Positions 22,125 through 44,448 of a stretch of DNA of 64,000 nucleotides are shown piece after piece. The number at the start of each line of letters is the position of its first letter. The stretch's first letter is position 1. The notes under the pieces were generated by a model, which did not search any database, had not been told where the DNA came from, and saw only the letters and a list, made by a program, of their open reading frames with translations. Source of the DNA: a virus. The position numbers were made by a program, and so were the translations under genes. The stretch spans positions 64,001 through 128,000 of IMG/VR virus record IMGVR_UViG_3300049434_000014; one strand, written 5' to 3'.

Positions 22125-23961
22125 ATGACCGATTTCGACGAGCCAGTAGATTTTGACGAGGTAGCTTGCGACGAGGAATCTTTGACTTCTCTGATTGAGG
22201 GAGGTTACGTCGATGGCGAAGCGCTCTTTTTCATCCTCGCTCGTTGGAGAGCTGCGATGGACGTGGTGGGGATTCCTGAGTTGGTGGGCACGCACGAAGC
22301 CATGGCTGTGATTCGGAGCGCTCGCAGATGGCGCCGTTGGGATATCTTTACGAAGTACTTTTTTTGGTTTCTGTTTTTGTTACCAGTAATGCTCTCTCTA
22401 ACTATGTCGATAGGTGTTTAGCATGGACGAGTATGTGGCCATAGATTGGAAGCAACGCGCTTACGAGGAAAATGAAAAGTGTGCTAAGTACCGTGAGCTT
22501 TTGTGTGCGATGACTGGGTTGCCTATTAATGCTTCGTTGCATCAGCATCGGTTTGCTGCAGAGCAGCTTAAGAAACGTTGGCGTCAGATAGCCGCTTTGG
22601 CTGATCGTTGGGACAAGATCCCTTACGGTCGTGGGTCGTCTATCTCGTGCGCTCGGGACTTGCGTAAGGCTTTGGGTATCGCAGAGGGTAGTACTGAGAC
22701 ATGATGCGAACTATTGATGTAGCTGCTGTAACTGAGTTACTGGATGAGTGGGATACCCAAATCTCTGACGATGATTCAGCGCGTATTCAGTTTGCTGCCA
22801 AGGAGCGTCTGCTCAGAGAGATTGAGTTCGAGGCTCGAGTGAAGGTTCGTCGCACGATGGCTGCTGAGGTTCGGGCGGCGTTAGGGCTATGACGCTTTCG
22901 GGCACTGATCTTGTGGTCTGCCTGCTCGCTGCAGGCTTGTGTGCTTTCATCGCTGGCTGGATCGCCTGCTGGGCGGTCGCGATGCGTTATGGGGAGCTGA
23001 CGGGACGGTTCCGGGAGCGTAAGGATCGTGCACGTCGTCCCCACGTTGCTCTCATTGCTATTCCCTCGGGCGTGGCTGCTGCGCTTGCTGTTCCTGTTGA
23101 GCCTGATGTTAACGAAGAGCATGAGTTGATCTCGACGTGGGCGGCACATAAAGTCGTGACTGGGTAGTACTTGTTATGACTATCGTATCGTGGGCCTCTC
23201 AGACTCAAGCGTTACGAAATGTGGCTGCAGCCGAGCTGTTGGAGGAAGCAGCCAGGCCGATGATCAGTGCGATTAAGACTCTGTCTAAGGACAATGGTGG
23301 TCGTCGTGGTATTGCTTCTACTACTGCCCTTGTTACGTTGCGGAGCGCTGTCAGGCTTTTGGTTGATGAAGCTGGTCTGCTTCGATTGGAAGCGCTCGCC
23401 GTCACGCATCGTCATTGCGATGATTGCAATCGTAGGCAAGATGAGCATTGTCCTGGCGAGGGTGCTGACGTTGTGTGTGGCGCCTGTCCGCTTCCTGATT
23501 CGCCGCATCCGGACCCTGCTTGTCGGATGATGTCTCGATCCGGAGGGTGGGTTCGGCGATGACTCGGTCAGCGGTCACTTTGAATTACGTTCGGGCTCAC
23601 GAGTTGGCAGCGCAGCGTCTGGAGACACAAGTTGACGTACTCTCGCTGCAGTGCAATGGCATGAAGCTGAAAGCTGCTCGCGGCAGTTCTATGTTCTCGG
23701 ATCCTGGGGACATGGCTGCGTATTACCTTATTGACGATTTGCGTAAGGCGTCGAAGACTTTGTTGAATTCAGCACAGGCGCATCGGGCGCGAGCTACTGC
23801 CTTCCTGAACGCTCCGTGTCCCGCTTGTCTTGCGGGCCAGCGTTCGCACTGTGCTAGTTGTGGATCGTGTGCTGTTGCAAATCGTGGTCCGTCGTGTCGG
23901 GATCTTGAGTGTGAGTTGGCGAGTTCTCGCGTGTCTGTTGATACGTGAGGTATGATCGTTT

Positions 23962-24079
23962 CGACAAGTCAGTTCTTTACGCTTCGAGCCTTCCTGACAA
24001 GTCCAATCATGTCTTTTTCAGTTCGACTCGACTATTCTTGTCCATTCACCTCGCCTCGAGGCGTTTGACTTTTTCGTCC
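23962..24079 (+). repeat. Pentamer-periodic GAC-delimited array A (about 3-4 units), putative guide-RNA array
   Basis: cgac aagtc agttc tttac gcttc gagcc ttcc tgac aagtc caatc atgtc ... gac tattc ttgtc cattc acctc gcctc gaggc. Confidence 0.8.
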
Positions 24080-26357: not shown

Positions 26358-27311
26358 ATGGCAACGTCTGTACGGACCGACGAGCACCGCGAGGGTGTGC
26401 TGGTACCCGCGAACTACAGGTTTCGCGAGGTGCTGGATCTCTACGCTGGTGGACCCAAAGATGACGTGATCGCTCTGGCCAAGCAGGCAGCGGTCCCTCC
26501 GAGGTGGCTTCAGTTCGTAGAGCGTCAGCGCGCTCGGGTGAAGCAATACCAGGCTCGCGCAGTCGGCGATCGTCCTCGGTTGTCTCAGTGCAATATCTGT
26601 GGTGCGCACATTCGTTACGCGGTTGTGTGGGCATACAATCCCGAGCCGGGTGGTCACTTCGCTGGTTACATTACTACGGGTACTGACTGTGCCTCGTCCG
26701 TCAATGCTGCACTCGAGTCGGAGATTGCTTCTCAGGCTGGCGCTCTGCGTGAGTTCGTCGCTGGCATGCGTAAGCAGGCGCGGTCGGCTGCAGCGGCGCA
26801 CACGGAGCCTGCTGTGCCTGTTGAGGCGGCGTCACGGTGGTCTGCTGTGGATCGTCGTCGTCAGGCGTGGATCGCGGAGTCTAACGATCACTATCGGGTC
26901 GCGCACTTCCTGCACGCTGTGTCTGGTAACCACGCGGATCTCGGTTGCACTGGTAAATGTTTTCACTGTGACGTGACGGCTCAGTTGGTTGAGACCGGCT
27001 CGTTGTCGGAGCGTCAGGTTGAGGCTGTGCTGCGTTCTGTGCCTTCCTGGGAGGCGCATGGTCGGCTTCCTGAGCCTGCCTTCGAGATTCCTTCAGGTGA
27101 GACCACGATTACAGGCACGCTGGCTTCAGCGCGCAATGGGCACATGCTCATTAAGTGCAAGGGCTACCGTGTGTGGACGATTCCCCCGGAGGGTCTGCGG
27201 TCGGCTCAGACGGGTTCTCAGGTTCGGTTCACTGCTTATGTGGAGCCTTCCACGAAAGATCCTAAGTTTTTGATTGCTCGCGATGTTCGGGACGGAGAGG
27301 TTGTCGGTTGA
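26358..27311 (+). CDS. Hypothetical nucleic-acid-binding protein (Zn-ribbon N-terminus, OB-fold-like C-terminus)
   Basis: CNICGAHIRY...GTDC; GSLSERQ; C-terminal beta domain; GGAGG RBS. Confidence 0.6.
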   Translation: MATSVRTDEHREGVLVPANYRFREVLDLYAGGPKDDVIALAKQAAVPPRWLQFVERQRARVKQYQARAVGDRPRLSQCNICGAHIRYAVVWAYNPEPGGHFAGYITTGTDCASSVNAALESEIASQAGALREFVAGMRKQARSAAAAHTEPAVPVEAASRWSAVDRRRQAWIAESNDHYRVAHFLHAVSGNHADLGCTGKCFHCDVTAQLVETGSLSERQVEAVLRSVPSWEAHGRLPEPAFEIPSGETTITGTLASARNGHMLIKCKGYRVWTIPPEGLRSAQTGSQVRFTAYVEPSTKDPKFLIARDVRDGEVVG

Positions 27312-28219
27312 AATGGCTAGGGGTAGACGTCCCGTTCCGGAGGGCTTCGTTCGGATACTAGATCGTCGTAGCTCCGGTGCGGCGGGTGCGCACAAGGGTA
27401 GGACTGTGACGAGAAGTGCTGAGAGAAGCTCAGCTATTCGATCGAGCAGGGAGAATTAATATGTGTAAGTCGATTACTGTCGGCGAGCTTTTTGCGACCG
27501 ATAATCGGACTTTGACGGAGAAGATGGACGATCATTCGAAGCAAGATAATTTCGAGAGTGCTTTGACTGGTGTTCAGTATCAGCTTCGTCAGGCTCGGAT
27601 CGCTATGCTGGCTGCGGGAATGAAGATGCAGGATACTGATCGCCCGGAGATTGAGGTTGACGATTTCAGGTTGTACGACACTGCGGTGGAGGCAATTCAG
27701 AATCTTCAGGCTCGTATTCGTGACATTCTTGATGATTTGGATCCTAACGCTCCCATCCCGTCTGAGCGGCAGCTCCGCACGGATCAGGTCTAGTCTTCCT
27801 ACGTCGTGTTCAGAGAGGTAGTTATGCATCCGAATTCAGCATTTGCTTGGGATGATACTTCTCATCCTGCTCTTGCAGCCAAGGCGCGCGAGGCTCAGTT
27901 GGAGAAATTAGATACTCTGATGTATGTGCAGAAGAAGCTGATTGAGTCTCAGCGGGCACTGCTTGATGCTTTGTCGTCTCTGGTTGATACCAAGGTTGAG
28001 TTGTCTGCTGCTAGGAAGAAAGCGGCCAGTGAGACTCAGGGTTTCTTGACGGATTTGCAGCTGGCAACGCTGGAAGCATTCGCTTTGATTCAGCAGGGAT
28101 CGGTTTAGCGGGTACGACCAGTCGTCTTCGGACAGGGCATAGTAGAGCCTGAACAGACAGAATAAACTAGATATGGGGAGCACCGAAGAGTGGTTGTGAC
28201 TGGTCATGTCCACTCTCGG

Positions 28220-28673
28220 TGACTCGCTACGTTACACTGCAGATCGACTACTCAATTCTGTTCAGGCCCGTTCGATTCATTTGACAACCCGGCACAGGCC
28301 CTCTCGCATCCATGCGACAATGCGAGTCTTGTCTCCCCCTGGCCCATGCCGACTGTCCGTCTCGCCTCCGTATCCCATCCTTTCCGTTCTGTGCCGACGA
28401 GCCAGCTCGATCCGGGTCTCTCCCACCCACCGACTAGTCTCTGCGGATCCTCCCGGGTCAGGTGACTCTGCCGATCTAGTCCCAGCGCATCATCTCGTGT
28501 CCGACTATCCGTATCCGTGCTTGTCGTTTCCAATCGACCAGTCAGTCCCGGTCAGTTCGTGCCTTGTTCCGACAGATCGCTGCTGTTCGTTTCCCGTCAG
28601 TGCGACGGACCGAGACTGTTCGCCTCCAATCAGTTCGACTACTCGACACAAGTCACCCCAAGGCCGACGAACC
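28220..28673 (+). repeat. Pentamer-periodic GAC-delimited array B (about 13 units), putative guide-RNA array
   Basis: e.g. gac tctgc cgatc tagtc ccagc gcatc atctc gtgtc c|gac tatcc gtatc cgtgc ttgtc gtttc caatc|gac ... agatc gctgc tgttc gtttc ccgtc agtgc|gac. Confidence 0.9.
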
Positions 28674-29857
28674 GTTAGGACTAGTTATGGCACTGAGTGA
28701 GTCGGTGAAGAACCGTCTGCTGAACTGGAAGTTCGAGCAGGCGTGGCAGACCTTGTCTGAGGAGATGGGCGGGGATGCTTCGGAGGCTGAGGTTCAGACG
28801 GTGCGGGCGTTGGCGATCACGTTCGGGGATCCGGGTTGGTTTGAGGGTTCGATGGCAGACATCATCCGGGCTGTGTTGTGGTTTTTAGGAGTGACTGACG
28901 ATGATTAGTTTTCGACAGATCGATGAGTTTCTTACTCCTAAGGATCCGTTTTTCAAGCTTTTGATACCTGCTCTGCTTGCGGCTTATGTGTTTATGTTAA
29001 CTGTGGGTGCTGTTGTCGCTATCACTTTCTTTACTATCGGGATGGCTATCGTTATCACGTCTGCTGTGATGGGTAGCTTGTCGTTGGTGATTTTCTACGT
29101 GATCGATAAGGTAGTCACCAAATGACTAGGGTGTGGCGTGCTCATGGATTGCCTCACGGGCATGCGGATATTCCTAGGAAGATACGAACAGCTGATCATC
29201 GATTGTTTGAGCATTTTGATGGTAGTTTGTTTCGTGAGCTTTCTACGTCTCAGTGTAATTATAGGCACTGGGATGAGTTGGTGTTTCCTGTTTTTGAGGT
29301 CTCGGATGTTTCTCCAGAGGCGGTGTCTGCTTCTGCGGATGGTGTGCTCACGGGTGTGTGGATGTCTGGTCAGTTCTCGGACATCGACATGATTAACGAC
29401 ATCGCTGATTGGTTGTTGAAGACTAAGCTTCCTGTGTTGAACGTCAGTTTTGCTGCAGCGGTGGCGGATCGTATTCGTTACCTGCTAGAAAATGATGAGG
29501 AGACTCACCTGCTGCTAGGGAGAGAAGAGCTGTGAGTGATCACAAGATCGTGGAGTTTCTGAATTTGTGCGTGTCGGCTGATGAGGCAACCGGGTTAGGT
29601 TCGCCGTGGGAGTTTATCTTCAAGCGACGCATCATTGTCATTCATGCCCCACGTAAAGACGATAATGAGCAGTGGGTGTGTGATGCGTGTTCGTGGATGC
29701 ATCCTGAGATACGTCAGATTGTTAATGCGTACGCACCTTGCGAGCATTTGCAGTATATGTCTATGATCTATTCTAAGCGGGCTGGGTTTGATCCGGATTG
29801 GATTCATGACGTGATCGGGTTCGCTGAGCTTCCCTAATACTCCGGGTTTTCCGGATA

Positions 29858-30361
29858 TGACTACACTACTCCGATCCTTTCATGTCGTTGGCGAATCGTT
29901 CCCGTCCCGACTATTCGCCGCATGTCCCTTCGTGTCTTGCCAAGTCGACTATTCGTTTCGATCCCGGCCATTTCGTTTTGACTATTCGCATCGGATCCAG
30001 CTCCTATCGATTCGACTGATCTTGTCGACTACGCAAGTCAGTTCCGTTCTTTGCATTGCGACTTGTCGAGCCTGTCCGTGTCCGCGCGTATCGACTACCC
30101 GATCCAGTTCCGTCCTTTCCCGCTCTTTCCGACTACGCTCGTCTCATCCGGGCATGTCATCTCGACTACTCGATTCTTTCTCGTCGCTGCGGCTCTGTTC
30201 GACTACCCGGTTCGATACGGGACATCCCTGTCCGTTCTGACTACCCGTCTCCGTTCGCTTCTAGCCCAGTCCGTCTCGACAACCCATGTCGCGGCACTGC
30301 TCTTCTTTCCGTGACGACAGGCCAGTTCCAGTCTGTTCGTCTCTGTACGACATCACACATC
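29858..30361 (+). repeat. Pentamer-periodic GAC-delimited array C (about 15 units), putative guide-RNA array
   Basis: e.g. gac tacgc aagtc agttc cgttc tttgc attgc|gac ttgtc gagcc tgtcc gtgtc cgcgc gtatc|gac taccc gatcc agttc cgtcc tttcc cgctc tttcc|gac; boundary consensus CGACTA. Confidence 0.92.
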
Positions 30362-31464
30362 GGGTAGGAGTTGGGATGTATACGTTTTCTGAGGGTGTGT
30401 TGATTACGGATGACATGATTGAGCGTGACGATTCGATCGAGCCTCGCGCGGGTCAGCCTTGCTGGTGTCCTGATTCGTTTATCGAGGCGTGTTTTTACGT
30501 GCGGTATTGCCCGCGCCACGGGTCGGTTCCTGATCAGGATCTCTGGAATTTCAGGGTTGCTCCATACGGGATCTCATAGGTCTGCAGGGTTGCATGGTCT
30601 ACGAGGTCATGGTATGGTTGTTCCAACAGCAAGGGAGCCAGCCATGGAGGTCAGTGACAAGATTGAGGATTACCAGTTCGAGGCGCGTGTCCAGATCCGT
30701 TGCGGGTGTGGTCGTTACGTCTCCATCGGTCCTAATGCGGTGACCGGAGATTGCTGGGGTTGTGGTCGGGTCTATCGGACGTCAGTCGAGGTGCTAGCGG
30801 GTAGGACTGGGACATGACGACAACTCGAAACACTATCACCATTAATATAGTCAATGATGGGTCAGGTGTTACTGCTTCTGGCACTCTTGTCACGAGCCGA
30901 GTGATTGATCTCGAGGATCTTGATGAGCGTTACTGTTTGGTGTATCTCAAGATTGAAGATCCTACTGATGATCACACTCTCTCTCTTACGGTTGTAGATA
31001 TGTTGGAGACGTCCGTTCCGGTTGATTTTGCTGCTATTGAGGAGTCGGTTTACACGGCAGCGCGTGAGACTCGTAAGGCTGCGCGCGAGGCTCTTGCAGC
31101 GCAAAATCAGTAACGGTTCTGACGATCGGTAGTGTATCTTCTGTAAGGGTTGTCTGCGGGGTAGGACTCGATCATGTCGAGTCGTAACTACAGTGTCGCG
31201 ATTCGGATTGCTTGTGTGTGCAAGCGTGGGTTCTATGTTAAGAGAGTGGATCGACCAGCGGTGTGTCCGCATTGTGGACATCGGTTCGCTGTGAAGATCA
31301 AGTGTGTGGAGATCGGGCCAGCTGAGGAGCCTGTCTCAGACAAACGCAAGGCGGGTAGGATTCCGGTGGGTGGTGGAGTCTTGCACGGGGCTAAGACTTA
31401 AATGACAATGCATTAACTTGCAGCGTCCACCACCCGTTTGACAACTTAACAGAGATCCCATGAT

Positions 31465-31535
31465 GGCTTCATAGACTAATGGCAGGTCACTAGCCTCTCA
31501 AGCTAGGAGTACGGGTTCGACCCCCGTTGGAGCTA
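31465..31535 (+). tRNA. tRNA-Glu (CTC)
   Basis: GGCTTCA/TGGAGCT acceptor; ctagc-CTCTCAA-gctag anticodon arm; GGTTCGA T-loop. Confidence 0.85.
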
Positions 31536-31547
31536 CGTTTGTATTAA

Positions 31548-31617
31548 CGTTCCGTGGTGTAGGGATAGCACGCCGGTCACGGGACCGGTAGTCCACGTTT
31601 AACTCGTGGCGGAACGA
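31548..31617 (+). tRNA. tRNA-like gene with abnormal anticodon loop (6 or 8 nt; identity undetermined)
   Basis: CGTTCCG/CGGAACG acceptor, D arm, ccgg-tcacggga-ccgg, T arm ccacg-tttaact-cgtgg. Confidence 0.6.
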
Positions 31618-31664
31618 CGCACGGCCTAGGATCGCCTCTGCTTCGGGCATGCGCCTAGGTCTCT

Positions 31665-31738
31665 CGGGATGTAGGGAAGCCAGGTATCCCACCTGTTTTG
31701 GGTACAGGAAGCCGCAGGTTCGAATCCTGCCGTCCCGA
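31665..31738 (+). tRNA. tRNA-Pro (TGG)
   Basis: CGGGATG acceptor; cctgt-TTTGGGT-acagg; GGTTCGAATCC. Confidence 0.9.
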
Positions 31739-31740
31739 CT

Positions 31741-31816
31741 GGATGGATGTAGCTCAATGATAGAGCCCTTGGATTAACGTCTAAGGAGACGTGGGTTTGA
31801 TTCCCGCCACCATCCT
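31741..31816 (+). tRNA. tRNA-like gene with abnormal anticodon loop (cttgg-attaacgt-ctaag) and bulged acceptor stem
   Basis: TAGCTCAATGATAGAGC D arm; GGGTTTGATTCCC T arm. Confidence 0.6.
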
Positions 31817-31820
31817 TCAT

Positions 31821-31895
31821 GGTGAATGTAGCTCAAATGGCAGAGCGCCTGATTGTGGGTCAGGTCGTTGCGGGTTCGATTCCCGTCGTTCACCC
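31821..31895 (+). tRNA. tRNA-His (GTG)
   Basis: Encoded G-1; cctga-TTGTGGG-tcagg; GGTTCGATTCC. Confidence 0.9.
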
Positions 31896-31978
31896 CGAGA
31901 GGGACGGAGTCCAAAGCACATATGGTACCTGTTGCTAGGACTTAAACGACAATGTTATGTGTGTCCGTCCTTCTCCTA

Positions 31979-32050
31979 TCCTCGTTAGCTCAAAGGCAGA
32001 GCGTGCGATTGTTAATCGCAGGGTTGTTGGTTCAAGTCCAGCACGGGGAG
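31979..32050 (+). tRNA. tRNA-Asn (GTT)
   Basis: TCCTCGT/ACGGGGA acceptor; tgcga-TTGTTAA-tcgca. Confidence 0.9.
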
Positions 32051-32061
32051 CGTTTGTTTAT

Positions 32062-32132
32062 GGGTGTGACAGGATTGTGACAGTGGAGCCCGCTGAGCGG
32101 CACTGTTGAGGGTTCGAGTCCCTCCACTTCCA
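32062..32132 (+). ncRNA. tRNA-like small RNA with intact T arm but non-canonical remainder
   Basis: gaggg-TTCGAGT-ccctc T arm; acagtg/cactgt stem enclosing a ccgc-tga-gcgg hairpin. Confidence 0.45.
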
Positions 32133-32137
32133 CGAGA

Positions 32138-32490
32138 TGGGCAGTCGTTGTCGCTTGCTTCTTTAGCTACGGTAATCACCCCGATGGAGCGAGTGACCCT
32201 TCACGCGAGGTCGGTTGGAGGCTGACAACCTGACGACAATTGGTGGGCTTGTCACTCACCTACCTATCTCTGCTCGAACCACTTTGTTGGCGGGTTCGCT
32301 ACCCGTACGGAGTGCCGGTTTGATCCAGATAGGCTCTAAGCCGAGGTGTGGGTGCGACCCCGCTAGCCCTCGGTGCCCCGAGGATCCCTTGCCAGAGAGG
32401 AACCGGATACGGATCTGGTGTTCGAGTAGTCGAGATGGACAGGGTCTGTGTGAATAACGCAGCTTCAACGACACTGTGGTGTGCCTGTCC
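32138..32490 (+). ncRNA. Candidate large structured ncRNA (about 350 nt) within the tRNA cluster (GOLLD-like?)
   Basis: No credible ORF; 5' gtcgttg pairs with 3' caacgac; many internal stems; T-loop-like gggtgcgacccc; sits between tRNA genes. Confidence 0.5.
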
Positions 32491-32498
32491 TTCTCCAA

Positions 32499-32569
32499 GG
32501 TGGAATGACCGAGCGGCTAGGTAGCGGTCTGCAAAACCGCGCACGCGGGTTCGATTCCCGCTTCCGCCT
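32499..32569 (+). tRNA. tRNA-Cys (GCA)
   Basis: GGTGGAA/TTCCGCC acceptor; gcggt-CTGCAAA-accgc. Confidence 0.9.
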
Positions 32570-32587
32570 CGTTGGGTAGGATATGTC

Positions 32588-32983
32588 ATGACTGAAACAC
32601 TGGTAACGGCGCTTCTGAGGAACAAGCCAGGGAAGTGGGCGCACGTCCTTCACGAGGACTCGGTAGCTCCTAACATTCCCTCCCATCATCTGATGGATCT
32701 TGCGTGTGACGTGAATCTGGGCAATGATGAGTGGGCTCCTGCGGGTGCGTTTTCGGCAGTGATTCGGGATGCTTCGGATCTGTATGTTCGATTCAATTCA
32801 GATAAACCTGATGTCACTGAAGTTGTGGTGTCGTACCGTGCGTCGTTGAAGTACGGTAATTGCTTTGATTGCGGCCTTCCGGGTGCGCAGTATCTGTTGG
32901 TCGACGTGGGTGTGATGAACTGTCCGCTGTGTGCGGCTGAGGCTGCGGTAGCGGGCGCTCAGGTGACTAGGTTGGAGCGTTAG
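32588..32983 (+). CDS. Hypothetical protein with C-terminal Zn finger
   Basis: CFDC...CPLC; GGGTAGGA upstream. Confidence 0.6.
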   Translation: MTETLVTALLRNKPGKWAHVLHEDSVAPNIPSHHLMDLACDVNLGNDEWAPAGAFSAVIRDASDLYVRFNSDKPDVTEVVVSYRASLKYGNCFDCGLPGAQYLLVDVGVMNCPLCAAEAAVAGAQVTRLER

Positions 32984-32992
32984 TTTGTTCGT

Positions 32993-33065
32993 GGGTCGTT
33001 AGTTTAACTGGTAAAACAGGAGCCTCCAAAACTCCACGATGTGGGTTCGATTCCTGCACGGCCCG
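32993..33065 (+). tRNA. tRNA-Trp (CCA)
   Basis: GGGTCGT/ACGGCCC acceptor; ggagc-CTCCAAA-actcc; GGTTCGATTCC. Confidence 0.85.
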
Positions 33066-33534
33066 CTTATGAATGGGTAGGATGTGACATGTGGCAACGT
33101 GAGGATATGGCGAGGTTCCTTATTTGGCTTGACGATCAGGGTTTGCTTAATCCTCCCGTTGAGATCGAGATTGATGAGATCCTCGATTTTTATGAGGATT
33201 ATACAGGCGTTTTTACCTCAAGGAGTAGAGATGGCTGAGTCTCAGATTTTCGAAGAGCACACTGTTCGATACCCCGAGTGCGATAAGCTGCACCGTGTAT
33301 CTGGCGATGTCTCGACGCTGCATGAGTTTCTGGAGTGGCTGGCTGAGAATGGCCTGCAGGTGTGCAGCCTTGAGGAGACTGGGAAGTTTGACTGTGATGG
33401 TCCGGTCGAGCATTACTTCCCAATCCGCGAGCAGCGAGAAGCTTTGGTGCAGCGGTTCTTTTCGATTGATCCAGCCAAGCTGGAGAGCGAGCGCAGGGCT
33501 ATGCTTGCTGCACTGCAGAGTTGATTGAAGACAT

Positions 33535-33616
33535 TACCCCGTCGTCTATTTTGGCAGGACGCTGTGCGGTGGTCGCTCCCCGTGCGGAGGTGCACGTTCG
33601 ACTCGTGCCGGGGTAG
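33535..33616 (+). tRNA. tRNA-like gene (Gln-like body) with extended anticodon arm and about 10-nt loop
   Basis: TACCCCG/CGGGGTA acceptor, TGGCAGGAC D arm, gcacg-TTCGACT-cgtgc T arm; anticodon arm ctgtgcgg-tggtcgctcc-ccgtgcgg. Confidence 0.6.
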
Positions 33617-33731
33617 CTGGAGGATAGATGTTAGCTAACGTTGTTGGTACGTTACTTGGGTTGATGCTTTTTCTGTTGGTGATCGTGTCACTTGTGATGC
33701 TAGTTCTGTCGTTTGCTCGTGATTGATCCCT

Positions 33732-33804
33732 GCACCGGTAGCTCAGGGGATAGAGTGTCTGATTACGGATCAGAATGTCGCAGGTTCGATTCCTGCCCGG
33801 TGCG
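33732..33804 (+). tRNA. tRNA-Arg (ACG)
   Basis: GCACCGG/CCGGTGC acceptor; tctga-TTACGGA-tcaga. Confidence 0.92.
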
Positions 33805-33828
33805 CTCCCTAAGTTGTGGAGGCAAGTC

Positions 33829-40348: not shown

Positions 40349-40912
40349 ATGAGTGAACCTGTGCTTGATACACGTGATTACAATGCTGAGATGAATGAGC
40401 TTATTTCAGAGAAGATTCCTGCTGATGGGGATTTCATTCCTTCGCTGGCTGCGTGGAGCATCGTCTCAGCTCTCACCGAGACTGATCCTGAGCTTCTCGA
40501 CGGTTGGCTGCGTTTGCACGCGAAGTCGTTTCTTACGGAGTTGATGCGTGCTCAGCTTCGTTCTCATCGTGCTCGGGTTCGGTCTAGTGCGAAGGCGACG
40601 GCGTTTTCGTCTGCTGCTAAGCGCTTTGAGAAAAACGGTGACCTCGCCGAGCTGGGCGGGTGGATGAAGATTCGGTATGTAGTCGATGATCAGAGTACGC
40701 AGCGTTGTCTTGGCGATATGGATCGTAATGATCTGAATTTCGTTGCTTCACGGTATAGTCGGACGGCTCAGACTCTGTTGCTCGAGGAGGCGTTTCATCG
40801 CGCGCTAGCATCGCGGGTGGGTAGTCTGAAGGTCAGTGAGGTTTTCACTGAGGAGCAGATTAGCGCGATGTATCGTAATCTGAGTGGCAATACGCATACT
40901 GCTACTGCCTGA
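40349..40912 (+). CDS. Hypothetical protein directly upstream of array E (candidate partner of the Cas7-like system)
   Basis: Its TGA stop is the first TGAC delimiter of array E. Confidence 0.75.
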   Translation: MSEPVLDTRDYNAEMNELISEKIPADGDFIPSLAAWSIVSALTETDPELLDGWLRLHAKSFLTELMRAQLRSHRARVRSSAKATAFSSAAKRFEKNGDLAELGGWMKIRYVVDDQSTQRCLGDMDRNDLNFVASRYSRTAQTLLLEEAFHRALASRVGSLKVSEVFTEEQISAMYRNLSGNTHTATA

Positions 40913-41242
40913 CTTACCAAGACCAGTCACGGCTCATCCGTTCGATACCGTTCCGACATGTCTAGCCTCATCCCGTCAAGTCTTGCCATTGCCGACACGT
41001 CTAAGCACGTCTATTCACGTCCGACATTCCAAGGCCAGTCGCGTCGCGTTGGGCCATATCGCTTCCTTTCCGACTACGCACTTCTGCCCATAACTATTCA
41101 CGGCGACTTCCCGTATCAGGCCAAGTCGAGCCGTTTCGACTACACACTTCTCGCCGCGCCTAGTCGGGACCGACTTCACAAGCCGGATCGTGACAGGTCA
41201 GTTCGAGACCGACTGGGCTATCCGAATCGTTTCTCATCCGAC
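40910..41242 (+). repeat. Pentamer-periodic GAC-delimited array E (9 units)
   Basis: tgac ttacc aagac cagtc acggc tcatc cgttc gatac cgttc|cgac atgtc tagcc tcatc ccgtc aagtc ttgcc attgc|cgac acgtc taagc acgtc tattc acgtc|cgac... Confidence 0.92.
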
Positions 41243-41659
41243 AATGTCAGGAGTGTCTAGTGACTATCTCTGCTCAAGAGATTCTTAACTTGCCGATGCA
41301 GTCTAACGATGCGCAGGCAGCTACAGTTGGAGAATACTTGGTTGCACTTGTTAGAGAAGTGTGGAGATTAAATGAGAATTTTAGCGGTAAGAGACCGTTT
41401 GGGAACAGTGGATGGCATTACGAGCTTTACGCACCGTTGGTGAGAGCAGGTTTAGTTGACGGGCTCACTAATGAGGATGGAGAGATTGAAGTTACTGATG
41501 GACGCAGGGCTGATGCGTTGATTGATTTGGCCATCTTGGGGCTCTGGAAGCCCAGCGCGGAGAGCACGCAATAGTCACGGATCGCAACCACCTCAGCTCC
41601 CATCCGTTATCTGGGTGCTGAGGTGGTTTTGCGTTGTCCCCTATTTTTGAGGAGAGACT

Positions 41660-42227: not shown

Positions 42228-42986
42228 GTGACGGTTTCTACTTCGGCTCCTGTCAGTGTGTTTGCAAAGTACCGTGATGTCACGTGGCCTTATAGGTATG
42301 AGGGCACTCTGCACATCGATACCATTGCTGGAGGCATTCCTTCTGACGAGAAGGTTGCTGAGGCATGGTTACGTACGAAGTTGGAGAACAAAGACGACCT
42401 CATTCGTGAGGCCGTTGCTGAGACGATGGCCGCTCGCGGTGTCGGTAAGGAAGAGGCGGCACAGATCGTCGCTTCGATGAAGCACTTCACTGGTTTTAAG
42501 CGTGACAGCAATGGGCTATACATCGAAGGTCGTCAGCTGAAAGCGGCGATCAAGGAAGCGGCGATGATTGCTGTCGCCGCTGAGCGGATTCCCCTGCGCG
42601 GGTGGGGTGTTACCTCGAAGTACCTTAAGGGTTTCGTCGCGGAACACATCATGGTTGTCGATGACATCTTGTACTTGAAGGTGGACGGCACTCCTGCAAA
42701 GGAAGCTACTGGAATCACTCAGCAGTTCGTTCACACCCAGTACGGTTCGGCTCCGCACTACAAGGAGTTCGTGTCCGGTGCTACCATTGATTTCACGGTG
42801 ATTACGGACTTCTTCTTCACCGAGGAGCATTGGATGCACATCTGGGCTACGGGTGAGCAGGAAGGGATCGGTGCCTCGCGCTCTGGCGGGTTCGGTCGCT
42901 ACGTGGTTACTCGGTGGAATTTGGTGACTTCCCCACCAAAGAAGAAGGCTCCTGCCAAGGAGAAGGAAGCGGCTGCAGTTAGGTAG
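42228..42986 (+). CDS. Stand-alone Cas7/RAMP-like RNA-binding protein
   Basis: RAMP-like layout: N-terminal strand YEGTLHIDTIAGG, GLYIEGRQLKAAIKEAA (IPGSSLKG-equivalent), E.V..ATIDFTV, terminal Gly-rich loop GIGASRSGGFGRY; immediately followed by array F. Confidence 0.8.
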   Translation: MTVSTSAPVSVFAKYRDVTWPYRYEGTLHIDTIAGGIPSDEKVAEAWLRTKLENKDDLIREAVAETMAARGVGKEEAAQIVASMKHFTGFKRDSNGLYIEGRQLKAAIKEAAMIAVAAERIPLRGWGVTSKYLKGFVAEHIMVVDDILYLKVDGTPAKEATGITQQFVHTQYGSAPHYKEFVSGATIDFTVITDFFFTEEHWMHIWATGEQEGIGASRSGGFGRYVVTRWNLVTSPPKKKAPAKEKEAAAVR

Positions 42987-43017: not shown

Positions 43018-43317
43018 GAGACAAGCCAAGCCGCATCCAGACGCGCCACCGCGCTTCGACTATTCGTGTCAGATCTATCCATCTCCTTCGACCAGCCGTG
43101 TCGCGATCATGTCGCTTCCTAGTCCTTTCGACCTGTCGCTACGTTGCGCTTCTTGGCATATCCACACCGACCATGCGCGCCGCGACCTTACAAATCCTCT
43201 CGCCCTGACGAGTCTCCACGCGGCTCTACAATACTCATCATTCTGACAAGTCTTCACGCGGCTCTACAATACTCATCATTCTGACTAGCCAAACCGGTAC
43301 ATACCATTTCGCACGAC
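43018..43317 (+). repeat. Pentamer-periodic GAC-delimited array F (8 units), directly downstream of the Cas7-like gene
   Basis: gac aagcc aagcc gcatc cagac gcgcc accgc gcttc|gac tattc gtgtc agatc tatcc atctc cttc|gac ... includes a duplicated 38-nt unit. Confidence 0.92.
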
Positions 43318-43326
43318 TGAGGACTA

Positions 43327-44448
43327 ATGTCTACTGAGCCTTGGACTTTACGATACCGACCACGCAAGTTTTCTGATGTTACTGGTCAGAAGGCGGTTCG
43401 GTTGGTGCTGCAGCGAATGGTCGTCACGGGTGACGTCCGCTCAGCTTTGCTGTTTCATGGTTCACACGGTTCAGGTAAGACTTCCATGGCACGGATACTT
43501 GCTGCCGCTTTGAATTGCGAAGCTGAGGATCCCGCTGCTCGCCCGTGCGGTGTGTGTGCGATTTGCGATTCGACAGCGCATGGCCGGTCTGCTGATGTCA
43601 CGGAAATCGATGCTGCATCGTCCGGGCTCGCTGCGGATATGCGCGCGTTGCGCGAGACGGTGCGTTTCGCTGCTCAGGCTCGCTATCGTGTGGTGATCCT
43701 CGATGAGTGTCACGCTATGTCGCCTACGGGCTTTCAGACTTTGTTGAAGACTTTAGAGGAGCCTCCTGCCAACACGGTGATCATTCTCGTGACTACTGTC
43801 CTCGACAAGGTTCCGGACACGATCGTGTCTCGGTGTTTGTCGTTGGAGTTTCGTCGGTTGACGGAAGAGCAGATCGCTGGTCGACTGGCTCAGATCTCTG
43901 AGGCTGAGGGCCTTGAGCTGGCCCCTGCGCTTGCCAGGTCGGTTGCTGCCCGCTCGAGGGGGATCGCCCGTGACGCTGTCTCTCTGCTTGAGCAATGTGC
44001 TCTTGTGCGTGTACGGACTCCTGAGCAGCTGGCGGTTTTACTAGGCGACGATGACCATGGGATCGCGATCCTGCGTGCGCTGGTCGGTCCTCCTGGTCAT
44101 ATGTCGCCAGGAGCCAATCACCCCTCAGATTTTTCTGTGGCATTCGGGTGTATTGAGAGCGCTCTGGCCACCTTGCCCTCACCGGGTGAGGTGGTGGCCG
44201 CGCTCGTGCGGACGCTGAAGCGGTTGCTGATTTTGACCTCTGGCGGGGATGGATCTTTCATGCATCCTCCTAGTACTGCGGGCGAAGTGGCTCTAGCTGG
44301 GCTTTTGGACTCAGCACGGTGTGTTACCGCGATGAGAGTAGTTTGGGAGTATTATTCTAAAGTCGCACCGGTTGCTGATGCTTATGCAGCTATGGATCTT
44401 TTGGTAACGCTTTTGAGTCAGGCTCTTAAGTCGTCTTCTCGTACGTAG
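43327..44448 (+). CDS. dnaX: DNA polymerase III gamma/tau-like clamp-loader ATPase
   Basis: RYRPRKFSDVTGQ, GSHGSGKTS, PCGVCAIC, EIDAAS, ILDECH, LLKTLEEPP, SRC. Confidence 0.93.
   Translation: MSTEPWTLRYRPRKFSDVTGQKAVRLVLQRMVVTGDVRSALLFHGSHGSGKTSMARILAAALNCEAEDPAARPCGVCAICDSTAHGRSADVTEIDAASSGLAADMRALRETVRFAAQARYRVVILDECHAMSPTGFQTLLKTLEEPPANTVIILVTTVLDKVPDTIVSRCLSLEFRRLTEEQIAGRLAQISEAEGLELAPALARSVAARSRGIARDAVSLLEQCALVRVRTPEQLAVLLGDDDHGIAILRALVGPPGHMSPGANHPSDFSVAFGCIESALATLPSPGEVVAALVRTLKRLLILTSGGDGSFMHPPSTAGEVALAGLLDSARCVTAMRVVWEYYSKVAPVADAYAAMDLLVTLLSQALKSSSRT

What the first reader, a model, noticed from the sequence alone, without database searches (positions are those of the whole stretch)
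29858..30361. Array C: the largest and most regular array, with boundary consensus CGACTA
About 15 units, many perfect 6-7 pentamer runs (e.g. gac-tacgc-tcgtc-tcatc-cgggc-atgtc-atctc-gac). The first pentamer is strongly biased to TA(C/T)NC (tattc x3, taccc x3, tacgc x2, tactc, tacac), which suggests a 5' handle like CGACUA.. analogous to a crRNA 5' tag. A small tccgg..ccgga hairpin (29841-29855) precedes it, and it ends at a GGGTAGGA start motif.
Basis: partly seen in the sequence, partly recalled or inferred. Interest (0 to 1): 0.8.

Follow-up and report, generated by a model that had tools for sequence, protein, structure and literature searches.

The report
Divergent VIPR-type guide array in actinophage
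This 500-base gene-free stretch of a 153-kb actinobacterial phage is a real array of about 15 short units with a cytosine at every fifth base, best read as guide RNAs for the phage's lone Cas7-like protein: a divergent form of the VIPR RNA-guided silencing systems first described in 2026, whose targets remain unknown.

Summary
Window 29859-30361 has 16 GAC(T/A) boundaries, mostly 33 or 38 nt apart. Each is followed by 5-8 pentamers ending in C (C-C lag 5: z 8.7; GACTA 10 vs 0.3 expected; TA after GAC 10/16 vs 2/73).

It is one of at least seven such arrays in this complete phage genome, all C-phased on the gene strand. The only RAMP gene (42228-42986) has a Cas7/Csm3 fold and profile-level homology to SUSP1 Vipr. 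Most of 64 viral loci with a homologue carry the same CGAC-T(A/T)CCC grammar on the gene's strand, usually abutting its start.

I read array C as a VIPR-type guide array served in trans. It differs from published VIPR:
- C phase, not GGY, on the sense strand.
- Guanine-reading residues replaced.
- Units of about one filament turn.
- A 3-nt delimiter instead of a 3' tail.
- A conserved leader hairpin.

The transcribed strand is inferred (about 75% +). No targets were found. The CRISPR-like 5' handle idea is partly supported.

The scan had already flagged this genome's other arrays and VIPR-like arrays in over 250 other genomes.

The parts
29839..29857 (+). Leader element ACTCCGGG-TTTT-CCGGATA (hairpin TCCGG/CCGGA) directly before the first unit
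   Evidence: Folds at -7.5 kcal/mol. The motif ACTCCGGG-N3-6-CCGGATA has 4 perfect matches in 2.7 Mb, all directly before an array start in C-phase orientation: array C, the 4.3-kb array of this genome, L047 and L049. About 0.01 matches are expected by chance. L044 has a variant stem with compensatory changes.
29859..30361 (+). Array C: about 15 units, each GAC + (NNNNC)x5-8; C 34.5%, G 20%
   Evidence: No significant RNA structure on either strand (z -0.69 and +0.33). No Rfam match at E<=1.
29909..29946 (+). Clean 38-nt unit (GAC + 7 pentamers; NN = TA GC AT CC GT TT AA)
29980..30026 (+). Decayed stretch: one unit that loses phase after 3 pentamers, plus a 13-nt stub
30027..30059 (+). Clean 33-nt unit; it shares the NN core AG-CG-TT with the unit at 30093
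   Evidence: plus direct reading of the two units
30060..30092 (+). Clean 33-nt unit (first NN is TT, not TA)
30093..30130 (+). Clean 38-nt unit (GAC TACCC GATCC AGTTC CGTCC TTTCC CGCTC TTTCC), the best match to the family consensus NN-YCC
30131..30163 (+).
30278..30348 (+). Two clean units (38 and 33 nt) that start AA and AG instead of TA
30362..30579 (+). Ribosome-binding site GGGTAGGAG and the downstream 67-aa gene (ATG 30376). The array runs right up to it, leaving no room for a promoter on the opposite strand.
   Evidence: No Pfam or PHROG family.
29532..29837 (+). Upstream 101-aa gene; its stop codon lies 1 nt before the leader element
   Evidence: Only one relative in 5.8 billion proteins (81% identity).
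42228..42986 (+). Single-copy Vipr-like RAMP (Cas7-fold) gene, the presumed reader of all arrays
   Evidence: AF2 with MSA: pLDDT 78, pTM 0.72. Foldseek PDB top hits are type VII Cas7 and Csm3, E 6e-7, probability 1.0. BFVD hit 'Cas system-associated RAMP superfamily protein' E 4e-10. hhalign against the SUSP1 Vipr family: probability 70%, E 4e-5. Single copy in the complete genome.
40349..40912 (+). Conserved 187-aa partner protein (vap-like candidate), function unknown
   Evidence: Its family is present in 53 of 72 loci, upstream of the array that precedes the RAMP gene. No Pfam, PHROG or Atlas lead.
23961..24063 (+). Array A (3 units), same grammar
28196..28668 (+). Array B (about 14 units), same grammar
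40904..41243 (+). Array D, between the partner gene and the RAMP gene
43018..43311 (+). Array E, directly after the RAMP gene; it contains a 38-nt tandem duplicate at 43205-43285

Best explanation
Array C is one of the guide-RNA arrays of a divergent VIPR-type system. Inferred: it is transcribed on the + strand together with its neighbours. Inferred by homology with SUSP1 Vipr: the phage's single Vipr-like RAMP protein (42228-42986, 12 kb away) coats the RNA with one protomer per pentamer. It holds the fixed C and the two mostly pyrimidine bases before it, and exposes the two variable bases. Each GAC delimiter removes two bases from the register, so the coat is broken into separate filaments of 5-8 protomers. 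That is about one helical turn of the published Vipr filament. The delimiter plus the nearly fixed first pentamer (GAC-UA-YNC; family consensus CGAC-U(A/U)-CCC) probably acts as the start site of each filament and possibly as a cutting site. On a + strand RNA, GA|CU resembles the RN|CNU preference of mycobacterial RNase E. Inferred from published VIPR and not shown here: each loaded unit recognises double-stranded DNA of a competitor or host through its 5-7 variable dinucleotides in a gapped register and silences transcription. The hairpin ACUCCGGG..CCGGAUA marks the start of the array, as a 5' cap or as an assembly or transcription signal. Shown here: the grammar, its family-wide link to the RAMP gene and its strand, the fold and remote homology of the protein, and the leader motif. 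Not shown here: RNA expression, strand, processing, protein binding and targets.
For: Array grammar and statistics. All arrays of the complete 153-kb genome are C-phased on the + strand. RAMP/Cas7 fold. Homology to the SUSP1 Vipr family: hhalign probability 70%, E 4e-5, with G-loops aligned. In 64 viral loci with a homologue there are 119 C-phase against 29 G-phase clusters. In about three quarters of loci a C-phase array ends just before the gene start. The same delimiter and first-pentamer consensus recurs, including in cultured Microcystis phage Mae-JY09, where the order is gene, array, then a 13-bp hairpin. Published VIPR properties (pentamer repeats, one protomer per repeat, six-subunit turn, gapped pairing, solo vrRNAs). 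Units are nearly all unique, as expected of a guide library. The body is unstructured. Sense strand: in phiSUSP1 the mapped vrRNAs lie on the vipr strand. Here the arrays fill the gaps between + genes up to the next ribosome-binding site. C-phase arrays are flanked by same-strand genes on both sides in 42 cases and on one side in 21 more. A -10-like TAGGCT, TAGCGT or TAGGAT box lies 7-10 nt upstream of the leader in three arrays. The guanine-reading residues of SUSP1 Vipr (R138, D177, W178; conserved in 27-29 of 29 canonical members) are E/K, Ala (42/42) and Ser/Thr (42/42) here, which fits a different fixed base. RNase E preference: PMC10641625.
Against: There is no expression or binding data. 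No target was found under any pairing rule: this phage's guides against its own genome plus 64 loci, two 18-base gapped patterns in IMG/VR at chance level with no convergence, and 698 pooled guides against 1.4 Mb. Units give only 10-14 variable bases, which is low specificity under the published rule. Only one pentamer position is strictly fixed in this phage, so which bases pair is uncertain. Read on the - strand, the motif (G-R-R-N-N followed by UAGUC) looks closer to the published G-first repeats with a 3' tail. The preprint lists NNNNG variants. Array C itself has no -10-like box before its leader. The strand-asymmetry folding test was uninformative. Array C is 12 kb from the protein gene.
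Confidence: 0.6

Rival explanations
1. Same system, opposite strand. The functional RNAs are transcribed from the - strand and read 5'-(G-R-R-N-N)x5-8-GUC-3'. Each unit would end in UAGUC(G) as a minimal 3' tail, and the CCGG hairpin would be a 3' end cap of the whole array. This would place the arrays among the published G-first repeat variants (NNNNG).
For: The published repeats are G-first with conserved 3' tails, and NNNNG variants are listed. In GC-rich relatives the - strand reads G(100%)-G(59%)-G(46%)-N-N, with conservation falling 5' to 3' as in GGY. In L047 and L049 an inverted array lies upstream of the gene, so G-phase RNA would be co-directional there.
Against: In phiSUSP1 the vrRNAs are sense to vipr, whereas here the sense strand is C-phased in nearly all loci. 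All seven arrays of this genome would need their own antisense promoters inside, or within 15-35 nt of, the next gene's start, and no shared motif is seen there. The -10-like boxes face the C-phase direction. The residues that read G1 and G2 are lost. In Mae-JY09 the order is gene, array, strong hairpin.
Confidence: 0.2
2. The arrays are RNA tracks for the RAMP protein but are not sequence-specific guides. For example, they could be a scaffold or sponge that stores or titrates the protein. Or they could be a protein-dependent switch that controls read-through into downstream genes, with C-rich, G-poor naked RNA attracting Rho and coated RNA escaping it.
For: No targets were found. Units are short. 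The composition (C 34.5%, G 20%, unstructured) is that of a Rho loading site. The arrays sit between genes of one transcription direction.
Against: Units are almost all different at the variable positions, while phase and delimiters are kept across distant relatives. A sponge or rut site needs neither unique units nor a strict register. Homologous published systems are guides.
Confidence: 0.1
3. A DNA-level element: phased binding sites for a DNA-binding protein, an origin, or a packaging or partition region.
For: The leader is an inverted repeat that could be an operator. The 5-bp period is half a helical turn.
Against: The strict strand asymmetry (C on one strand in all arrays) is not expected for duplex binding sites. 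There is no shared unit sequence. The family-wide partner is an RNA-binding RAMP fold. The stem covaries in L044.
Confidence: 0.04
4. A protein-coding gene (ORF 29857-30240, 127 aa) or a true CRISPR array.
For: An ATG-initiated ORF spans three quarters of the array. Unit length resembles that of CRISPR spacers.
Against: Period 5 with 33- and 38-nt units cannot keep a reading frame. Three overlapping + frames are open only because A and G are scarce. Tandem Repeats Finder finds no direct repeats here, and no Rfam CRISPR repeat family matches.
Confidence: 0.01

Closest known systems
Type II VIPR of Escherichia phage SUSP1 (Vipr + vap1 + vrRNAs; bioRxiv 10.64898/2026.04.26.720920 and .720927)
   Same: A phage-encoded lone Cas7-like RAMP of about 200-250 aa with remote but detectable homology. 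Non-coding arrays of pentanucleotide repeats with fixed and variable positions sit next to the gene on its strand. No CRISPR repeats.
   Different: The fixed base on the gene strand is C (NN-YYC; NN-YCC/CCC in GC-rich relatives), not GGY. The G-reading residues R138, D177 and W178 are replaced. Units have 5-8 pentamers instead of 9-16. A 3-nt GAC register break plus a fixed UA replaces the roughly 40-nt pseudoknotted 3' tail. There are over 140 phase-coherent runs of 5 or more pentamers at seven sites instead of four vrRNAs. One leader hairpin per array. Expression, binding and targets are unproven here.
Non-canonical and 'staggered' VIPR arrays (NNNGG, YNNNG, NNNNG repeats; GAC/NN, CAC/NN, WGT/NN, TGH/NN cores; 10.64898/2026.04.26.720920 methods and fig. 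S18 legend; 10.64898/2026.10.21.760802)
   Same: Pentamer arrays with only one or two fixed positions, units that abut without long tails, and a Vipr-like fold next door.
   Different: I could not see the figures or tables, so I cannot tell whether this actinophage clade is among the seven types or the 21 odd clusters. No text in the three VIPR papers I searched, nor any paper that holds both vrRNA and Streptomyces, mentions actinobacterial systems. The non-canonical clusters are said to repeat about 10 times, against 5-8 here.
Solo (orphan) vrRNAs of SUSP1-family phages and F5 satellites (10.64898/2026.10.15.759431)
   Same: Guide loci located away from, or without, a vipr gene and served in trans, as array C must be (single RAMP gene).
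   Different: Those are single canonical vrRNAs with tails. Array C is a 15-unit array inside a gene-dense early-type region.
Type III / type VII CRISPR backbones (Csm3/Cmr4/Cas7 filament on crRNA with an 8-nt 5' tag)
   Same: Best structural matches of the protein. Periodic protein binding with a flipped base.
   Different: Period 5, not 6. No repeats, no Cas6/Cas5/Cas10 partners seen, and no adaptation module identified. The tag is 3-9 nt and is not derived from a repeat.

Membership tests
VIPR system | A minimal single-RRM RAMP (Vipr) with a G-loop and thumb, encoded mostly by (pro)phages | tested here: met
   AF2 model pLDDT 78. Foldseek hits to Cas7/Csm3 with probability 1.0 and to viral RAMP proteins. 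The family has over 900 members in actinobacterial (pro)phages.
VIPR system | Vipr protein phylogeny: homology to published Vipr (SUSP1) | tested here: met
   Profile-profile hhalign A1 against A3: probability 70%, E 4.1e-5, 157 columns. A single sequence against the profile gave only E 0.067. No tree was built, so the type (I-VII) is unassigned.
VIPR system | vrRNA made of tandem pentanucleotide repeats with fixed and hypervariable positions | tested here: met
   Lag-5 z 8.7. Position 5 is invariant and positions 1-2 are near uniform. The same holds in relatives.
VIPR system | Repeat consensus GGY/NN (or G-containing variants) on the transcribed strand, which is the vipr strand in SUSP1 | tested here: not met
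   The gene strand carries NN-YYC here and in nearly all relatives. SUSP1 carries GGY/NN on the vipr strand. It would be met only if the arrays are transcribed antisense.
VIPR system | Residues that read G1 and G2 (H17, R138, D177, W178 of SUSP1 Vipr) | tested here: not met
   Aligned positions are E/K179, A216 (42/42) and S/T217 (42/42). In the canonical family they are conserved in 27-29 of 29 members. H17 lies outside the aligned region.
VIPR system | 9-16 repeats followed by a conserved structured 3' tail | tested here: not met
   Units have 5-8 pentamers separated by GAC only. The family mode is 6-7. The body is unstructured.
VIPR system | vrRNA loci in long intergenic regions flanking vipr (or solo loci elsewhere) | tested here: met
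   Arrays D and E flank the gene. Array C is a distal locus 12 kb upstream. Solo loci are described in print.
VIPR system | An accessory vap gene next to vipr | tested here: inconclusive
   A conserved ~189-aa partner occurs in 53 of 72 loci (window 40349-40912), but it has no recognisable DNA-binding or nuclease domain.
VIPR system | Gapped (1-nt skip) recognition of natural DNA targets by the NN positions | tested here: inconclusive
   No excess over permuted guides under skip 0-3 or other rules. IMG/VR hits were at chance level. The host is unknown and the databases were small.
VIPR system | vrRNAs expressed and co-purifying with Vipr | not testable with these tools
   Needs small-RNA sequencing and a pull-down.
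CRISPR array | Conserved direct repeats of about 23-50 nt alternating with unique spacers | tested here: not met
   Tandem Repeats Finder finds nothing in 29858-30361. Units share only GAC(TA) and phase. No Rfam CRISPR repeat family matches.
CRISPR array | Adaptation genes cas1/cas2 and multi-subunit effector genes nearby | not tested
   Only the neighbours of the arrays and of the RAMP gene were scanned against Pfam, and none is a Cas protein. The whole genome was not scanned for cas genes.

The most novel reading that the evidence does not exclude
A 'mirror-code' VIPR lineage. The arrays are read as sense, C-phased RNA by a Vipr branch that replaced its guanine-reading residues. Each 33- or 38-nt unit, started by GAC-UA, forms a single-turn mini-filament. 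A single phage therefore carries a library of well over 100 very short guides spread over seven loci, some with their own promoter-proximal 5' hairpin. Such short guides could work combinatorially, or on conserved codon motifs of host defence or rival-phage genes.
Probability: 0.45. Interest if true: 0.75.

Novelty: new variant of a known kind. Interest (0 to 1): 0.58.

Why it matters
VIPR was described only in 2026, and its rules (GGY reading, 9-16 repeats, 3' tail, 1-nt skip) rest on a few proteobacterial systems. This actinophage clade keeps the pentamer principle but changes the fixed base, the residues that read it, the unit length and the punctuation. It also expands the guide count by more than an order of magnitude. 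If confirmed, Vipr base recognition would be shown to be evolvable, one filament turn would be shown to suffice for function, and phages would be shown to carry large dispersed guide libraries. The clade includes prophages of culturable Streptomyces, Nocardiopsis and Actinomadura strains and a cultured cyanophage (Mae-JY09), so it can be tested. For array C alone the gain is modest, because it is one ordinary member of this genome's set.

Tried and rejected
1. Megablast of 27000-33000 against INPHARED phages: no match.
2. Rfam at gathering and at E<=1: tRNAs only, nothing in the array.
3. Single-sequence AF2 model of the RAMP protein: unusable, pLDDT 37.5. It was replaced by an MSA-based model.
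4. Sequence search of the PDB: no hit. VIPR cryo-EM entries were not among the Foldseek PDB hits (library released up to 8 April 2026).
5. Counterpart of array C in a relative: the upstream gene has one relative (P0122, 81%). The viral and metagenome scans found nothing.
6. ORF-based strand calling around arrays was unreliable. It was replaced by a GC frame-plot caller that works only at high GC.
7. Hairpin G.U search: it was biased by design. The fair two-strand MFE comparison was uninformative.
8. Target searches under 12 pairing rules, two 18-base gapped scans plus a permuted control in IMG/VR, and 698 pooled guides under skip 0-3: all at null level.
10. The partner protein 40349-40912 has no family or structural lead.
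11. Supplementary tables of the VIPR preprint are not held, so prior inclusion of this clade could not be checked.
12. Rejected readings: coding ORF, CRISPR array, plain Rho site and duplex DNA iterons (see the rival explanations).

Full report
**1. What is in the sequence**

Window 29859-30361 lies between a 101-aa gene (29532-29837) and a 67-aa gene (ATG 30376, ribosome-binding site GGGTAGGAG at 30362-30370). It contains 16 GAC(T/A) boundaries. The spacings are 50, 38, 33, 34, 13, 33, 33, 38, 33, 37, 20, 18, 39, 38 and 33 nt. After each boundary comes a run of pentamers ending in C.

Seven units are fully in-phase 33- or 38-nt units, three more are nearly so, two carry 1-nt slips, and 29980-30026 is decayed. 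The statistics are as follows.
- C-C co-occurrence at lag 5 is 106 against 60.5 +/- 5.3 in shuffles (z 8.7).
- GACTA occurs 10 times against 0.3 expected.
- TA follows the delimiter in 10 of 16 units against 2 of 73 other variable positions (p 9e-8).

Only pentamer position 5 is fixed. Position 4 is T in half the cases, position 3 avoids A, and positions 1-2 are uniform. In the frame (triplet)(NN), a boundary is a place where the NN between two triplets is missing...YYC|GAC-UA-YNC-NN-...

**2. It is one of a family**

Runs of 5 or more C-phased pentamers number 84 in the window against 31.6 in shuffles. The excess lies in five places: 23961-24063, 28196-28668, 29857-30361, 40904-41243 and 43018-43311. 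The complete 153,455-bp genome has direct terminal repeats and 100% estimated completeness. It adds a 4.2-kb array and a 0.65-kb array beyond the window. All arrays are C-phased on the + strand and none is G-phased.

Units are almost all different from each other. Apart from one fresh 38-nt duplicate in array E, similar pairs exceed a permuted null only slightly (15 vs 4). The body of array C has no significant RNA structure on either strand (z -0.69 and +0.33) and matches no Rfam family even at E<=1.

**3. The protein partner**

Earlier scan notes pointed to a Cas7-like gene and to the 2026 VIPR preprints, and I tested both. The product of 42228-42986 has no Pfam, PHROG or PDB sequence match but has over 900 homologues. 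An alignment-based AlphaFold model (pLDDT 78, pTM 0.72) matches type VII Cas7 and type III Csm3 chains (Foldseek E 6e-7, probability 1.0). It also matches viral RAMP proteins in BFVD.

Profile-profile comparison with the family of the SUSP1 Vipr protein gives probability 70% and E 4e-5 over 157 columns, with the glycine-rich loops aligned. The gene is single-copy and no canonical Vipr is present. A ~189-aa protein of unknown function accompanies the module in 53 of 72 loci; in this window it is 40349-40912.

**4. Comparative evidence**

In 64 IMG/VR loci oriented on the homologue there are 119 C-phase against 29 G-phase clusters, and most of the G-phase clusters are small. In about three quarters of loci a C-phase array ends just before the gene start.

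Across 23 relatives' arrays, the inter-run gaps are GAC (149) or CGAC (58) of about 350. Run length peaks at 6-7 pentamers. The first pentamer is TACCC, TTCCC or TGCCC. In GC-rich genomes the fixed triplet sharpens to YCC/CCC.

The cultured cyanophage Mae-JY09 (31% identity) has the same CGACTACCC grammar after its gene, followed by a 13-bp hairpin. A 27%-identity relative uses GTGACA(A/T)G delimiters. Genomic hits lie in Streptomyces, Nocardiopsis, Streptosporangium, Actinomadura and Streptacidiphilus.

The closest large relative (146 kb) also has arrays at three distant sites on the gene's strand; a backwards-read control pattern scored zero. Downstream of homologues of this phage's genes 23520-23948 and 26358-27311 it has one 4-kb array. 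That is the position where this phage has arrays B and C separated by small genes.

**5. The leader**

The hairpin before array C is part of the motif ACTCCGGG-N3-6-CCGGATA. Its four perfect matches in 2.7 Mb all sit directly before an array start in C-phase orientation: array C, the giant array, L047 and L049. About 0.01 are expected by chance. The loops differ while the stems are kept, and L044 has a stem with compensatory changes. In three of these arrays a -10-like box (TAGGCT, TAGCGT or TAGGAT) ends 7-10 nt upstream, so transcripts could begin at a 5' hairpin. Array C has no such box and may be read through from upstream.

**6. Which strand**

In phiSUSP1 (KT454805.2) the experimentally mapped GGY/NN vrRNAs lie on the vipr strand. 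Here the gene strand is C-phased. Several points favour sense transcription.
- The arrays fill the gaps between + genes up to the next ribosome-binding site, so there is no room for antisense promoters.
- Same-strand genes flank the arrays.
- The -10-like boxes face the C-phase direction.
- Mae-JY09 shows the order gene, array, hairpin.
- The residues that read the two guanines are replaced. R138, D177 and W178 are conserved in 27-29 of 29 canonical members. Here the aligned positions are E/K179, A216 (42/42) and S/T217 (42/42).

Against it, the - strand reading (G-R-R-N-N, then UAGUC) resembles the published G-first repeats with 3' tails, and NNNNG variants are listed. Inverted arrays in L047 and L049 fit either model. 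A two-strand folding comparison was uninformative. I put the + strand at about 75%.

**7. Mechanism**

This is by homology with the cryo-EM work: one protomer per repeat, triplet sequestered, NN exposed, six subunits per turn in the binary complex and five in the ternary complex. I propose that the RAMP protein coats the array RNA pentamer by pentamer. Each GAC register break ends one filament and starts the next. Each 33- or 38-nt unit would then be a one-turn mini-filament that presents 5-7 variable dinucleotides.

GAC-UA-YNC may nucleate assembly. On a + strand RNA, GA|CU resembles the RN|CNU preference of mycobacterial RNase E (PMC10641625), which is a possible host processing route. What the guides recognise is unknown. 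No pairing rule gave matches above permuted controls in any of three tests:
- this phage's guides against its own genome and 64 relatives' loci;
- two 18-base gapped scans of IMG/VR;
- 698 pooled guides.

The host and its mobile elements, which are the expected targets, are not available.

**8. Comparison and novelty**

The system meets the core VIPR criteria: a phage-borne minimal RAMP homologous to Vipr, and pentamer arrays with fixed and variable positions beside the gene. It fails several type II details: GGY on the sense strand, the G-reading residues, 9-16 repeats and a 3' tail. The preprints mention alternative repeats, staggered arrays and non-canonical cores. Their figures and tables are not held, and none of the texts mentions actinobacterial systems. 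I therefore cannot tell whether this clade is already catalogued.

I file it as a new variant of a known kind. The scan had already reported this genome's other arrays with the same reading and VIPR-like arrays in at least 256 genomes. Array C adds the conserved leader, the unit statistics and the strand arguments, but not a new class.

**9. Limits**

No expression data exist. The strand, processing, binding and targets are inferences.

Noticed in passing
window 31465-33805: tRNA cluster 1.1 kb downstream of array C: ARAGORN finds 8 genes. One of them (31548-31618) has an odd two-base anticodon call. Rfam adds a weak tRNA at 31743-31814 (31.6 bits) that ARAGORN does not call.
   Followed up: no
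L075 (Microcystis phage Mae-JY09, PP395641.1 37713-38976): A cultured cyanophage encodes a 31%-identity homologue of the RAMP protein, followed by a CGACTACCC-type C-phased array and a 13-bp GC-rich hairpin at the very end of the record. This is a possible experimental model for the clade outside Actinobacteria.
   Followed up: partly
L047 1790-2690 and L049 9558-10000: In these two relatives the array upstream of the RAMP gene is inverted. It is separated from the gene by about 115 nt. That spacer holds the leader hairpin, a -10-like box and a palindrome CACGAT(G/A)CGTG, which looks like a divergent promoter/operator region.
   Followed up: partly
L090 (G001:76001-92000): The closest large relative has a single 4-kb array (109 runs) where this phage has arrays B and C separated by four small genes (28688-29837). 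That suggests either gene insertion into an array or array loss.
   Followed up: partly
proteins P0178, P0183, P0208: Canonical SUSP1-type Vipr homologues (about 40% identity) also occur in Gordonia, Rhodococcus and Streptomyces. Actinobacteria therefore host both the canonical and the C-phased clade.
   Followed up: no
window 43327-44448: The gene directly after array E encodes a clamp-loader-type AAA+ protein (DNA_pol3_delta2, E 8e-33). The VIPR-like module therefore sits inside the replication gene block.
   Followed up: no
window 43205-43285: A 38-nt tandem duplication of one array unit (95% match). Its two differences lie in the second pentamer (position 1) and the third pentamer (position 2).
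   Followed up: partly
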